From NCBI GenBank assembly GCA_002269645.1, contig NIVC01004945.1:1-30510 (forward strand): 30,510 bases of DNA, in the 5' to 3' direction. The stretch comes from Macrostomum lignano (Eukaryota). Below the pieces are notes generated by a model. The model was not told the origin of the DNA. It made no database searches and saw only the letters and a program-made list of their open reading frames with translations. Shown here one piece after another: positions 4,972-21,541 of the stretch; position 1 is the stretch's first letter, and every line of letters begins with the position of its first letter. A program made the position numbers and the translations under genes.

Positions 4972-5579
4972 AGTAGAAGGCATGAGGGGGCTTTTGGGAC
5001 AAAATTTTTCACGTCCTCCATAATCCCATTAAATCCATCTATATTATCCCTGACAGAATCAGAAAAAAAGGGGGGTCGCACTCGCTAACAAAACGTCCTC
5101 CATAATCCCATTAAATCCATCCATATTATCCCCGACAGAATCAGAAAAAAGGGGGTCGCACTCGCTCACAAAACATCCTCCATAATCCCATTAAATCCAT
5201 CCATATTATCCCTGACAGAATCAGAGCATAACAGGTGTCCTACTGTTATGCTCTGAGGGTTTATGCTCTGAGCATAACAGCTCCAAATCCACCCATAGCA
5301 TCTTCGAAACAATCAGAAAATAATCTGCATTCTTCTCCCCACATTCAATCCGCAACGTGCTACCAGATCCCTAAGACTTTAAATCCCCTAACCCAGGGTC
5401 CTTACCCTTTGAAAAAAAATCTAAATTTTCTCTAAAAATGTTTCCAGTTGTCTCCCCAGGTTCTTATTACAAAGCGCACGAGCCTAATTACAAGAGTAAG
5501 TACCAATGCAAACTAGAATGCAGCGAGTACATGAGAAAATATTGGCCCGGCGTTGATATCAATGTCCCTAATATTAATC
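4972..5579 (+). repeat. Left terminal inverted repeat (608 bp)
   Basis: Reverse complement of 20934-21541; identical wherever compared, including homopolymer lengths; first mismatch at 5580/20933. Confidence 0.95.
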
Positions 5580-5629
5580 TAGCTCTCCAAAGACACTGGT
5601 TCAGAACACAGCTGAGAAAATTTGCTTAG
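5438..5629 (+). CDS. Small TIR-initiated ORF, left copy (63 aa), unknown function
   Basis: TAAAAATG start context shared with other element genes; N-terminal 47 aa identical to the right copy. Confidence 0.4.
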   Translation: MFPVVSPGSYYKAHEPNYKSKYQCKLECSEYMRKYWPGVDINVPNINLALQRHWFRTQLRKFA

Positions 5630-6467
5630 TCATGCTAGTAAGAGTTTGGCTCTGCATGAAAGGTACAATCGTTGATGGTAATTTCACTTAAAACAAAGAA
5701 AAGAAAGAAAGCAGACCTTATTTATTAATTGTTAAATAAATACCGTACCGTAATACGGTACCGAAAATACCGTATTGTAGTTGGAGTTTATTCTATGAAG
5801 CTTTGAATTTTTATTTATCGAAATTTTGTAATAAATAGAATAACAATGTTTTACATAAACAAAAACAAGAATGATTATTAATTGGTGGTACTTCTAAAAT
5901 TGTCTACAAGTTGCTCTAAATTTATATTAGAAGGAAGGTTATCTAACAAACCTACAGTATCCTCTCTACATATCCCACATTTTCTCGTGTTATTACTTGA
6001 AGTAAGAATTTCTAGTCATATTACTTATAAGTAGGCTCTAAACAACTTGACGCCATTCTGGACTGTCTCGGAAAAACCACACATGATTTTCTCTAACGTG
6101 TTAGAAAAAATCATGTACACACATCATTTTCTCTAACGCGTTAGAAAAAATCATGTGCGCCCAGTACGTTCAAGGCCGTCTCCCCAGCTGGCCTTGGGTA
6201 CCTCGGTTTCAGAGAAATCTCTCTCCCACGCCAGTGTACGCTTTCTGTTACACTCCGCTATTCTTAACACACAACCTTGGCGACAACCTCTTCATGCCTT
6301 TCTTGCCTTGCCCCCCCCCCTAGTGGTATCTAGTGGTAAGTGATATCTTACCACTTCTCTCTACACTCTATGAAAATATTAATACTTATGAAATCTTAAC
6401 ACAACAAACAATAACCTAAAGGACTTGTCAATAAAATGCCTGAATAAATATTAGAGTGTTGTCACCG

Positions 6468-7329
6468 TCAGCACGTCTTCACTTTTTTGTCCTCGTCCTC
6501 ATCTTCATCATCTTCCTCGTTGGCCTCTGAAAAAAAGCAACGTTTTAAGAATTATCAATTTAAATTTAATAGAATTAAAACTGTGAAGCAATTACTTACC
6601 GTCTTCGTACCAGGCTTGGATTGTCTTTTCAAATTCACCTTCCATTGTAAGGAAGGCAACACTTTCGTGCTGCATTCTCAGCAGCTGGTCAAATCTGGTG
6701 TCGGTGGCAGCCTTCTTGCGGATTGGAGCGCTATAGTTCAACACACGCCCCATTGAATAACCCGAGAAGATCAGCCCCGGGAACTCCAGGCACAGCCGGT
6801 AATACTTCACATAATCACTCACTTTCCGAATGGTTACGTCAAACACACGAGCTAGCTCGCGTTCGTCCATACCAAACTTTGAGCTTAAATAGTTGACTCT
6901 TCTTCCGAACTCGAATTGTAAGATCGCCTTAAGTATTGACACATTGTCAATGCCAACTATCACTTGTTTGGTGCCCTCGATAATCGATGTTCTCGACAAA
7001 TCAAACAACTTTTCTCCGACGAAATTAATCGAAGAGAATAGTGACTGTAGACTGACTCGCACGCCGCGATCTTCGATATCCTCCAATTTTTCCTTTATTT
7101 TTTCAATTACGGTTTCCTCTTGTCTATTCTCTTCTTTCTTCTCCGATACGCTCTTCCGTTTGTCTGGCAGACCGTTTAACTTTTGCAAGCTTGCTTGAAG
7201 CCTCATCAGCTCTTCATTGGGAAAGTCTCGGAGGCGAGCTCCCAGCAGCGATCGATCTTTTTTTAATAACGATGTGGTCATCTCCACAACGTCTGAGATG
7301 CGTCTTTGTTTCTCTTTAGACAAAGCCAT
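6468..7329 (-). CDS. Putative HTH DNA-binding protein, spliced (7329-6600 + 6526-6468), about 262 aa with acidic tail
   Basis: HTH-like segment ERELARVFDVTIRKVSDY. Donor G|GTAAGT at 6599 and acceptor TTTTTTTCAG at 6527 join in frame to give EANEEDDEDEDEDKKVKTC*. TATAAAA at 7400-7394. Confidence 0.7.
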
Positions 7330-7393
7330 GCTGGGATTTCAATAGTATATACAATCGAATGTGTGTGTAGTGTGTTTAGCGTTTTATTTTTGC

Positions 7394-7400
7394 TTTTATA
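7394..7400 (-). promoter_or_regulatory. Candidate TATA box of the HTH gene
   Basis: TATAAAA on the minus strand about 65 bp upstream of the ATG at 7329. Confidence 0.45.
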
Positions 7401-19897: not shown

Positions 19898-19919
19898 ATA
19901 ATTTTTTTTCAATAAAAAA

Positions 19920-20777
19920 ATGGAAGCCATAGCCGAAAGACTGAACAACATTGTTTCACACTCTAAGGAGAGCATTCCAATCACTGTAGCGGGTCGCATT
20001 ACTGAGTCAAACGGAATCTTCATTCAAAAATTGGAGCAACCACTTCGTTTGGATCCCGAGGCGAATTACCACGTCTATCTCAATGATTTCACTGGGTGGT
20101 CAAATGTTCCCAATGTGACAGCGGAAAATAACAAGTTTTATTACAAATGGAAGCGTACTACAACAGAGGTTGTGATATTTCCTGTCAGCACACAGAGCGT
20201 GGATACTTATAATTACTTCTTGGAGAACGTCTTCACTAAACGAAAGCATTTTGAGATACCGGATGAAAGCAAACCAGAAAATAAACTGTTCCCTGTTAGA
20301 TTAACTTATGATCTAACTGTCATGAGAGTTGTCTTGCAAGTTCATAAGGACGCAGAGGTAGAGTTTAAAGATGGCACTTGGTATCGCGAGTTGGGATTTG
20401 AAAAGAGAGTTTATGGTGGCGCCACAGACCAAAGCCCGCTGCAGGCGCCTGGCACTGTTGCTGTGTCCCGGCTAATATCCGGTATGTACTTGGCGCCAAA
20501 TATCGCTGACATTGTCAAAGGTTTGAATATATTAATTCGCAGCAATCTGAGCCATGATTGGATATTCAAGGGCAAACGAACCAACATACTTTTTAACATT
20601 TCAAACTCTGTTGCTGGTGGCAAAATGCTTGTGCAAAAGCCAAACCCCGTGAAAAGAGTGATTCTGAGTAATAGAGAGATACATGAAATCATTCTGCAGT
20701 TTGAAACAGAGGATGGCGTTGGTGTCGATTTTAACGGGGAAGAGTTTGTGCTAACAATTATTATTGAGAGAATGTGA
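19920..20777 (+). CDS. Minor capsid protein (penton-like), 285 aa
   Basis: PLRLD, SNVPNVTAENNKFYY, ELGF, ILIRSNL and VDFNGE match Polinton penton patterns. Confidence 0.85.
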   Translation: MEAIAERLNNIVSHSKESIPITVAGRITESNGIFIQKLEQPLRLDPEANYHVYLNDFTGWSNVPNVTAENNKFYYKWKRTTTEVVIFPVSTQSVDTYNYFLENVFTKRKHFEIPDESKPENKLFPVRLTYDLTVMRVVLQVHKDAEVEFKDGTWYRELGFEKRVYGGATDQSPLQAPGTVAVSRLISGMYLAPNIADIVKGLNILIRSNLSHDWIFKGKRTNILFNISNSVAGGKMLVQKPNPVKRVILSNREIHEIILQFETEDGVGVDFNGEEFVLTIIIERM

Positions 20778-20838
20778 GTCGTCTTCAGACTTGTAAAATT
20801 ACGATATAAGCCGCCAGGTACAACCGTGTAGTTGGCTA

Positions 20839-21075
20839 CTACAACTGCCTTATAACTTCAGCAAAGTTATAATAGCTGTCAAAATTGTTAATGACTACTC
20901 CGTGTTTTTCAAACCAGTGAGATTTAAGTGCTTGATTAATATTAGGGACATTGATATCAACGCCGGGCCAATATTTTCTCATGTACTCGCTGCATTCTAG
21001 TTTGCATTGGTACTTACTCTTGTAATTAGGCTCGTGCGCTTTGTAATAAGAACCTGGGGAGACAACTGGAAACAT
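20839..21075 (-). CDS. Small TIR-initiated ORF, right copy (78 aa), unknown function
   Basis: Starts in the right TIR and runs 95 bp beyond it; A-run start context. Confidence 0.5.
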   Translation of the reverse strand: MFPVVSPGSYYKAHEPNYKSKYQCKLECSEYMRKYWPGVDINVPNINQALKSHWFEKHGVVINNFDSYYNFAEVIRQL

Positions 21076-21541
21076 TTTTAGAGAAAATTTAGATTTTTTT
21101 TCAAAGGGTAAGGACCCTGGGTTAGGGGATTTAAAGTCTTAGGGATCTGGTAGCACGTTGCGGATTGAATGTGGGGAGAAGAATGCAGATTATTTTCTGA
21201 TTGTTTCGAAGATGCTATGGGTGGATTTGGAGCTGTTATGCTCAGAGCATAAACCCTCAGAGCATAACAGTAGGACACCTGTTATGCTCTGATTCTGTCA
21301 GGGATAATATGGATGGATTTAATGGGATTATGGAGGATGTTTTGTGAGCGAGTGCGACCCCCTTTTTTCTGATTCTGTCGGGGATAATATGGATGGATTT
21401 AATGGGATTATGGAGGACGTTTTGTTAGCGAGTGCGACCCCCCTTTTTTTCTGATTCTGTCAGGGATAATATAGATGGATTTAATGGGATTATGGAGGAC
21501 GTGAAAAATTTTGTCCCAAAAGCCCCCTCATGCCTTCTACT
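20934..21541 (-). repeat. Right terminal inverted repeat (608 bp)
   Basis: Reverse complement of 4972-5579. Confidence 0.95.

What the first reader, a model, noticed from the sequence alone, without database searches (positions are those of the whole stretch)
4972..21541. Complete, apparently young Polinton/adintovirus with a full virion gene set
All core modules are present (INT, pPolB, protease, ATPase, MCP, penton), with matching 608-bp TIRs, an exact 6-bp TSD and 5'-AGTAG termini typical of Polintons. It is a candidate endogenous virus able to form particles; whether the lineage is new needs phylogeny.
Basis: partly seen in the sequence, partly recalled or inferred. Interest (0 to 1): 0.8.

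Follow-up and report, generated by a model that had tools for sequence, protein, structure and literature searches.

The report
Broken-frame Polinton virus in flatworm intron
This is a recently inserted 16.6-kb Polinton (an integrated DNA virus of a well-known kind), probably in a Macrostomum-like flatworm; its two capsid genes are intact, but its polymerase, packaging and protease genes are frame-broken as written, so this copy is not shown to make particles.

Summary
The element is real. It spans 4972-21541, its terminal repeats are identical over 608 nt, and the 6-nt target duplication TGGCTT is proven by the phase of the host array. All six core genes are present. The major capsid protein models as a double jelly-roll (Z 22.9) and the penton matches the mavirus penton. 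The polymerase lies in at least 7 stop-free pieces over three frames, the ATPase in three frames, and the protease start is out of frame with its catalytic part. Identical repeats argue against slow decay in place, so assembly error (about 0.55) or a copy already defective when inserted (about 0.3) are likelier; reads are needed to decide. The element sits in a minisatellite inside an intron of a host RNase T2 gene. A flanking gene's only relatives found are Macrostomum lignano proteins. It is an Alpha-adintovirus-like Polinton with a divergent capsid clade, so a new member of a known kind.

The parts
4966..4971 (.). Left copy of the 6-nt target-site duplication TGGCTT
   Evidence: array-phase test
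4972..5579 (.). Left terminal inverted repeat, 608 nt, starts AGTAGA, holds about 2.7 copies of an 80-nt unit
5438..5629 (+). 63-aa ORF starting inside the left repeat; function unknown
   Evidence: A-rich ATG and codon-level likeness to its right-hand twin; no Pfam match
6592..7329 (-). 245-aa accessory ORF, open, no family
   Evidence: no match at a curated cut-off in Pfam or NCBIfam, none in PHROGs
7767..8255 (-). Parvovirus-VP1-like phospholipase A2 domain protein, 162 aa, open; probable entry protein (inferred)
   Evidence: PF08398 E 8.8e-14; homologue in L001 E 2e-11
8286..9248 (+). Retrovirus-like integrase, 320-aa ORF with D-D-E motifs in one frame; a frame change near 9.2 kb in the tail is suspected from a recalled motif only
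   Evidence: PF00665 E 3.5e-10; motifs; tail not confirmed by the L001 integrase
9338..9784 (+). 148-aa protein with adenovirus protein X (mu)-like segment; probable core protein (inferred)
   Evidence: PF05829 E 4.2e-7, above cut-off; similar to an L001 protein
9910..13788 (+). [quoted passage not shown]
   Evidence: tblastn of 83 long homologues; piece-by-piece blastp and stop table; start context; motifs
13874..14274 (+). Adenain-like cysteine protease; H, D and C motifs in one frame, likely start codon in another frame (break near 13.89 kb)
   Evidence: PF00770 E 2.6e-4, just under cut-off
14279..14935 (-). 218-aa Polinton accessory protein with a hydrophobic middle, open
   Evidence: homologues in L001 (E 3e-9) and L002 (E 2.5e-4)
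15046..15789 (-). 247-aa ORF with an internal 84-nt duplication, weak coiled-coil-type matches, open, no family
15806..16604 (-). A32/FtsK-type packaging ATPase; broken into three frames (near 16.49 and 16.20 kb), Walker A and Walker B in different frames
   Evidence: L001 ATPase aligns in three frames, E 1.9e-33; Atlas Pox_A32 clusters, score 0.97; motifs
16638..16995 (.). 17 copies of a 21-nt unit between ATPase and the next gene
17021..17410 (-). 129-aa ORF, weak likeness to an L002 protein
   Evidence: shuffle p 0.003; no Pfam match
17427..18574 (-). Two overlapping frames, probably one conserved Polinton gene broken near 18.27 kb and without a clear start codon (the join is inferred)
   Evidence: C-terminal likeness to an L002 protein, E 0.003
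18602..19897 (+). Major capsid protein, 431 aa, open, double jelly-roll
   Evidence: PF21738 E 6.4e-9; model pLDDT 61, pTM 0.65; Sputnik MCP E 1.3e-13; faustovirus MCP Z 22.9, rmsd 3.7, 322 aligned
19920..20777 (+). Penton (minor capsid protein), 285 aa, open, single jelly-roll with insertion domain
   Evidence: model pLDDT 92.7, pTM 0.84; mavirus penton E 1.1e-9 and Z 12.9, rmsd 8.1, 231 aligned; PLV, MELD and adomavirus proteins in BFVD
20839..21075 (-). 78-aa twin of the small ORF, starting inside the right repeat
20934..21541 (.). Right terminal inverted repeat, 608 nt
21542..21547 (.). Right copy of the target-site duplication TGGCTT
2512..22889 (+). Host intron (20,378 nt, GT...AG) of an RNase T2 gene, holding the 28-nt minisatellite into which the element inserted
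   Evidence: frame runs on across the intron between the HGLW and KHGSC motifs; PF00445 E 2.6e-8 on one downstream exon, E 0.084 on another, none on the other 5 of 7 pieces

Best explanation
A Polinton (Alpha-adintovirus-like) provirus integrated recently into a minisatellite inside an intron of a host RNase T2 gene of a Macrostomum-like flatworm. Shown: ends, target duplication, gene content, capsid folds, breaks. Inferred from the known family: the integrase joined the linear genome ends to host DNA and left the 6-nt duplication; an excised copy would be replicated by protein-primed pPolB from the terminal repeats, packaged by the A32-type ATPase into an icosahedral shell of MCP and penton, matured by the cysteine protease, with the PLA2 protein helping entry. 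The small frame breaks are most likely errors of an unpolished long-read consensus over a repeated element, so the family is probably still active in the host, though this written copy is not functional.
For: Zero differences between the 608-nt repeats and an exact duplication. At the break density seen (10-15 in 10,357 nt), zero repeat differences is ordinary under random consensus error (P 0.17-0.31) but unlikely under decay in place with five substitutions per indel (P 3e-5 to 9e-4; the ratio is assumed). All catalytic motifs looked for in pPolB, INT, protease, ATPase and PLA2 are present. Only one of the 10 homologue-supported breaks is an in-frame stop. Off-length units in the neighbouring host array occur at a similar density (3 of 87 units, 1.2 per kb), and the 20-nt host array has 9 off-length units of 52. 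No large deletion or nested insertion interrupts a core gene. M. lignano assemblies rest on PacBio data and were hard to assemble because of repeats (PMC5730564, passages); whether the window comes from such an assembly is not known.
Against: The 1872-nt host DEG/ENaC gene has no break (P 0.07-0.16 at the same rate). MCP plus penton have none (P 0.03-0.10, chosen after the fact). Three 17-21-nt arrays have 0 of 16, 0 of 11 and 0 of 11 off-length units. Homopolymer runs of 4 or more lie in 9 of 14 hand-picked break zones against 43% background, P 0.09, and runs of 5 or more in only 1 of 14. Ten of 14 frame changes go the same way, which does not separate error from natural indels (P 0.09 at 50:50, 0.48 at 2:1). 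One break is a true in-frame stop. Minisatellite units change length naturally. Most vertebrate Mavericks (96%) are degraded (PMC8097293, passages). No reads, transcripts or second copy were available.
Confidence: 0.55

Rival explanations
1. The breaks are real and older than this insertion: a defective, non-autonomous copy was replicated, integrated and perhaps packaged in trans by an intact helper copy, with the repeats kept identical by the replication mechanism.
For: Identical repeats and exact duplication together with many breaks. Breaks fall in polymerase, ATPase and protease and spare MCP and penton (P 0.03-0.10). The host coding gene is clean. In-frame stop at 10897.
Against: Catalytic motifs are all kept, and 72 of 81 near-invariant columns are kept in the largest polymerase piece against 76-81 in five full-length relatives, mostly with conservative changes, on a much longer branch. 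Breaks are nearly all small frame changes, not the large internal deletions usual for non-autonomous copies (recalled).
Confidence: 0.3
2. An intact provirus inserted and then decayed neutrally in place (a young fossil).
For: Multiple frameshifts and a stop are what fossils show (PMC8097293, passages). With only two substitutions per indel the clash with identical repeats is milder (P 0.005-0.03). Gene conversion or joint polishing could hide differences between the repeats.
Against: Zero differences in 608 nt where 5-19 are expected for 13-15 breaks, depending on the assumed ratio; only one stop among the breaks.
Confidence: 0.1
3. The interior is a mosaic consensus of reads from several diverged copies placed between true flanks.
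For: Repeats collapse easily in assemblies (general knowledge); breaks come in clusters (pairs near 11.0, 12.0 and 13.2 kb).
Against: Both junctions are exact and in phase with the host array; MCP and penton are seamless.
Confidence: 0.05

Closest known systems
Alpha adintoviruses (Starrett et al. 2021, PMC8502044), e.g. Corynactis coral adintovirus
   Same: INT, PolB, adenain, FtsK/A32 ATPase, hexon-like MCP, penton, PLA2 and pX-like genes between inverted repeats. The largest polymerase piece is 42% identical to Corynactis PolB, which is listed in the Alpha panel of Suppl. Fig. S2; both carry the endonuclease VII-like match.
   Different: PLA2 and the pX-like segment are on separate genes here, whereas the paper's PLA2X has both in one protein. 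The MCP has 11 unnamed relatives at 41-76% and only 22-25% to the 3 other hits. Best polymerase identity is 49% among 120 listed hits. No flatworm host was found in the paper's main text or in the held part of its supplement.
Vertebrate Mavericks (Barreat and Katzourakis 2021, PMC8097293)
   Same: Size 16,570 nt (intact ones average 16,862), 608-nt repeats (range 46-1447), 6-nt duplication, AGT-type terminus, the six enzymatic and capsid core genes.
   Different: Terminus AGTAGA, between (AGT)2 and (AG)3. Gene order differs: INT, pPolB and protease on one strand, ATPase opposite, MCP and penton at the right end. PZ, PW and PM genes were not tested. It does not meet their 'intact' standard.
Polinton-like contig L001 (in a bacterial MAG, probably misbinned)
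   Same: Shares MCP (24%), penton (HH probability 100%), ATPase, INT, PLA2, PolB and two accessory genes.
   Different: Different gene order; its ATPase, MCP and penton are single ORFs; host unknown.
Orthopolintovirales insertions reported in Rhabditophora (bioRxiv 10.1101/2025.04.19.649669)
   Same: Polinton-type element embedded in a flatworm genome (one section and passages read).
   Different: Macrostomum is not named in its main text; its supplements are closed, so overlap with this element could not be checked.

Membership tests
Polinton/Maverick | Terminal inverted repeats of hundreds of nt | tested here: met
   608 nt identical
Polinton/Maverick | 6-nt target-site duplication | tested here: met
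   TGGCTT; only a 6-nt overlap of 12 tested restores array phase
Polinton/Maverick | Terminal motif (AGT)2 or (AG)3 | tested here: inconclusive
   AGTAGA//TCTACT matches 5 of 6 positions of (AGT)2; those motifs were defined in vertebrates
Polinton/Maverick | Protein-primed PolB gene | tested here: met
   homologous over about 1,100 residues with all motifs, though in pieces
Polinton/Maverick | Retrovirus-like (rve) integrase | tested here: met
   PF00665 40.5 bits over cut-off 32.6; D-D-E motifs
Polinton/adintovirus virion module | Double jelly-roll MCP | tested here: met
   PF21738 above cut-off; Z 22.9, rmsd 3.7, 322 aligned; model confidence moderate
Polinton/adintovirus virion module | Single jelly-roll penton | tested here: met
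   pLDDT 92.7 model; mavirus, Sputnik and adenovirus pentons lead
Polinton/adintovirus virion module | A32/FtsK packaging ATPase gene | tested here: met
   present, in three frames
Polinton/adintovirus virion module | Adenain cysteine protease gene | tested here: met
   PF00770 21.1 bits against cut-off 21.3, best of three clan-related matches; H, D, C motifs; position next to pPolB
Intact Maverick (PMC8097293 standard) | All core genes as uninterrupted ORFs | tested here: not met
   pPolB and ATPase split, protease start out of frame; assembly error not excluded
Alpha adintovirus | PolB of the pfam03175 (Alpha) class | tested here: inconclusive
   PF03175 only 20.8 bits, under cut-off 25.8, on one piece; many listed homologues carry PF03175 and Corynactis Alpha PolB is 42% identical; the tree had no Beta PolB or outgroup
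Alpha adintovirus | PLA2-like gene | tested here: met
   PF08398 E 8.8e-14
Alpha adintovirus | pX domain at the C-terminus of the PLA2 protein (PLA2X) | tested here: inconclusive
   PF05829 matches a separate gene, 9338-9784, and was not listed for the PLA2 ORF; a short diverged pX could be missed
Alpha adintovirus | N-terminal OTU-like domain of PolB | not tested
   region is in pieces; a C...H pattern near 10.74 and 11.07 kb resembles it from recall only
Alpha adintovirus | Hexon and penton cluster with Mayetiola references | not testable with these tools
   reference sequences were not in the held part of the supplement; MCP hits were unnamed
Active virus | Particles, free linear DNA, expression | not testable with these tools
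   no reads or experimental data

The most novel reading that the evidence does not exclude
The breaks are assembly noise and the element is one copy of a currently active adintovirus lineage of macrostomid flatworms with its own capsid clade (the 11 unnamed MCP relatives at 41-76%). A small, transparent, transgenic-ready worm would then carry an endogenous virus in which excision, free linear DNA and the long-missing Polinton virion could be seen. A bolder variant: defective copies keeping only capsid genes are spread in trans as satellites.
Probability: 0.3. Interest if true: 0.65.

Novelty: new member of a known kind. Interest (0 to 1): 0.38.

Why it matters
Polintons with full capsid gene sets are known from many animals, and 134 intact ones from vertebrates, yet their particles had not been observed as of PMC8097293 (abstract passage). 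A young insertion in a Macrostomum-like flatworm would extend the host range to a poorly sampled branch and might offer a tractable animal in which to look for particles. Three searches pairing Macrostomum with Polinton, Maverick or adintovirus gave one paper on another subject (listing only), none and none, and one pairing Platyhelminthes with Maverick, Polinton and major capsid protein gave none. A 2026 preprint already reports such insertions in Rhabditophora. The library lacks most subscription papers and RepBase was not searched. As written, this copy cannot be the evidence for an active virus.

Tried and rejected
Exact look-up of six window proteins: 0 of 6 in the collection; the four MCP clusters asked about had no informative names. 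Integrase against annotated phages: no match. NCBIfam (12 proteins) and PHROGs (14 proteins) gave no convincing family for any accessory ORF. Rfam: no match at gathering scores. Two short RNase T2 exons found no PDB relative. Atlas placed the host channel only with generic ASC clusters. The homopolymer and direction tests did not separate error from decay. Corrections: one search labelled 13 breaks 'homologue-supported', but only 10 are (8 pPolB, 2 ATPase), so repeats the sums for 10, 13 and 15; one search counted 4 of 88 off-length array units, but the first is the true exon end, so 3 of 87 is used. Exon ends typed were off by a base or more at several junctions; only the join across the element's intron (2511 to 22890) and the one before it are relied on. 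Trees: MCP tree used 13 of 14 hits (fragment P0009 left out); polymerase tree used 119 of 120 listed hits out of 6725 found, with no outgroup, so it shows a long branch (0.82 against a median of 0.08) and not a placement. Long ORFs over the 28-nt and 21-nt arrays were rejected as repeat translations. A bacterial or phage origin was rejected: spliced RNase T2 and a DEG/ENaC gene flank the element. No complex prediction was run.
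Full report
Ends and target site. The element runs from 4972 to 21541 (16,570 nt). Its ends are reverse complements without a mismatch for 608 nt, with the first difference at offset 609; looser similarity goes on to about 639 nt. It begins AGTAGAAGGC and ends GCCTTCTACT. The flanks are a 28-nt tandem array, which could mimic a duplication, so I tested phase: of overlaps 0 to 11 nt only 6 nt restores a perfect array (84 of 84; the other 11 give 62-69), so TGGCTT is a true target-site duplication. The interior is about 40% G+C against about 55% in the arrays on either side.

Gene content. Pfam finds the integrase core (E 3.5e-10), a parvovirus-type PLA2 domain (E 8.8e-14), an adenovirus protein X-like segment (E 4.2e-7), the double jelly-roll family PF21738 (E 6.4e-9) and, just under its cut-off, the adenovirus endoprotease. 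The MCP model is of moderate confidence (pLDDT 61, 15 sequences), but its best matches are all double jelly-roll capsid proteins: Sputnik E 1.3e-13 and faustovirus Z 22.9, rmsd 3.7 over 322 residues, with unrelated folds from Z 8.2 down. The 285-aa ORF after it has 119 relatives at E up to 0.001; with 90 of them aligned the model reaches pLDDT 92.7 and matches the mavirus penton first (E 1.1e-9; Z 12.9, rmsd 8.1, 231 aligned). The Walker B piece of the ATPase falls with Pox_A32 clusters (score 0.97; family on 19-63% of members) and the 257-aa ATPase of contig L001 aligns to the region at E 1.9e-33.

The polymerase is not one ORF. Of 120 listed homologues, the 83 of 1050 residues or more align in a succession of frames, and seven separate stop-free pieces match them (28 to 83 of 83 homologues each). 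That gives seven frame changes (near 10.63, 10.98, 11.02, 12.0, 12.06, 13.15, 13.21 kb; two, not one, around 11 kb because of the stop table) and one in-frame stop at 10897. Most of the element's genes begin with an A-run before ATG; the ATGs of this type at 9910 (polymerase), 13874 (protease) and 16604 (ATPase) open only 36, 23 and 73 codons. The ATPase lies in three frames with Walker A and Walker B in different ones. A break in the integrase tail near 9.2 kb and one near 18.27 kb rest on recalled motifs and frame overlap, not on a homologue. So 10 breaks are homologue-supported, 3 more rest on start context and 2 on recall. MCP and penton are matched in a single frame by all 12 homologues tried. 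All catalytic motifs looked for are present.

Error or decay. With 10-15 breaks in 10,357 coding nt (1.0-1.45 per kb), decay after insertion predicts differences between the two repeats; zero has P 3e-5 to 9e-4 at five substitutions per indel and 0.005-0.03 at two (assumed ratios). Random consensus error predicts zero with P 0.17-0.31. The adjoining host array has 3 off-length units of 87 (1.2 per kb, after dropping one unit that is the true exon end) and the 20-nt array 9 of 52. Against error: the 1872-nt host channel gene is clean (P 0.07-0.16), three other arrays have no off-length unit (0 of 16, 11 and 11), homopolymer enrichment is not significant (9 of 14 hand-picked zones, P 0.09), the direction bias is not decisive (10 of 14), and the capsid pair is spared (P 0.03-0.10, after the fact). 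I put assembly error at 0.55, a copy defective before insertion and moved in trans at 0.30, decay in place at 0.10 and a mosaic consensus at 0.05. None of the tests is decisive without reads.

Host and site. The intronless DEG/ENaC gene at 24705-26576 (PF00858 E 4.9e-43) had two relatives at E up to 1e-10 among 8000 scored candidates, both Macrostomum lignano, at 54-57%; its exact sequence is not in the collection. The host is therefore probably a Macrostomum or near relative (inference, about 0.85), species not determined. The array lies in an intron of an RNase T2 gene: HGLW at 2337 and KHGSC at 23281, PF00445 on two of seven pieces (E 2.6e-8 and 0.084), and a GT...AG intron from 2512 to 22889 whose removal keeps the frame. 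The array unit is a copy of the exon-intron border. Insertion into an intronic minisatellite is probably near neutral, if the 20-kb intron is still spliced (not tested).

How it works. By established knowledge of the family, integration by the rve integrase leaves the 6-nt duplication; free genomes are copied by protein-primed pPolB from the repeats, packaged by the ATPase into MCP-penton shells and matured by the protease; the PLA2 domain is thought to aid entry (PMC8502044, first two of six parts read). Here the integration step is shown by its footprint and the capsid fold by models; everything else is inferred. As written, this copy could supply capsid proteins and probably integrase, but not replication or packaging.

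Relation to known groups. It meets the Polinton tests and fails the 'intact' standard of PMC8097293 (passages and one section read). The PLA2 gene and the 42% match to Corynactis PolB, listed in the Alpha panel (supplement part 1 of 400), point to Alpha adintoviruses, but the class was not tested against Beta references. The MCP has 14 hits: 11 unnamed proteins at 41-76% and three at 22-25%; ten of the 11 were in the tree and, with the window protein, are split from the three by a very long branch with full support (midpoint root, no outgroup). The polymerase piece reaches 49% at best and sits on a long branch. This suggests an unnamed lineage; the word-based search can miss relatives.

Literature. 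Searches for Macrostomum with Polinton, Maverick or adintovirus gave nothing relevant (listings only), nor did one for Platyhelminthes. The M. lignano genome paper has no Maverick or Polinton in its main text or three held supplements (PMC5730564; passages and term searches). A 2026 preprint reports Orthopolintovirales insertions in Rhabditophora (passages and one section); its closed supplements may include this host. Slides and most files of the adintovirus supplement could not be read.

Verdict. A real, young, full-length Polinton insertion with verified capsid folds, in an under-sampled host group, but frame-broken in three core genes as written. New member of a known kind; interest 0.38, rising to about 0.65 if reads show an intact, expressed family.

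Noticed in passing
window 5438-5629 (+) and 20839-21075 (-): A small ORF starts inside each terminal repeat and runs out with two different ends (63 and 78 aa). Just past the repeat border three codons differ only at the third base, which hints at a real gene and a repeat border that has moved. No Pfam match.
   Followed up: partly
window 3320-4386: A second, 1067-nt insertion in the same 28-nt array, with CCCGTTG ends, a probable 3-nt duplication CTG and internal inverted repeats; looks like a non-autonomous DNA transposon.
   Followed up: partly
window 2503-3319, 4386-4971, 21542-22685: The 28-nt minisatellite is an amplified exon-intron border of the RNase T2 gene, so every unit carries a GTGAGT donor-like word. 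Other introns of this gene also hold arrays (20, 31, 21 and 17 nt).
   Followed up: partly
window 1457-1570: In the probable upstream RNase T2 exon a signal-peptide-like stretch and the FDF motif lie in different frames; this could be a one-base error in a host gene or a different exon start.
   Followed up: no
window 24705-26576 (-): Intronless, G+C-rich DEG/ENaC (ASC) channel gene, 623 aa, convergent with the RNase T2 gene.
   Followed up: partly
window 6078-6157: Two 40-nt units, each nearly palindromic, in the non-coding stretch after the left repeat; possible cruciform or binding site.
   Followed up: no
window 16638-16995: 17 regular copies of a 21-nt unit directly upstream of the ATPase start; role unknown.
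   Followed up: no
window 29061-29101 and 29947-29987: 41-nt inverted repeat pair, 88% complementary, around an A+T-rich 845 nt; possible MITE.
   Followed up: no
L001 1-14689 and L002 1-3162: Polinton-like contigs inside two bacterial MAGs of GTDB, probably misbinned eukaryotic or viral DNA.
   Followed up: partly
P0038: The Corynactis adintovirus PolB record carries a duplicated 25-residue stretch around Pol motif A, perhaps an assembly artefact.
   Followed up: no
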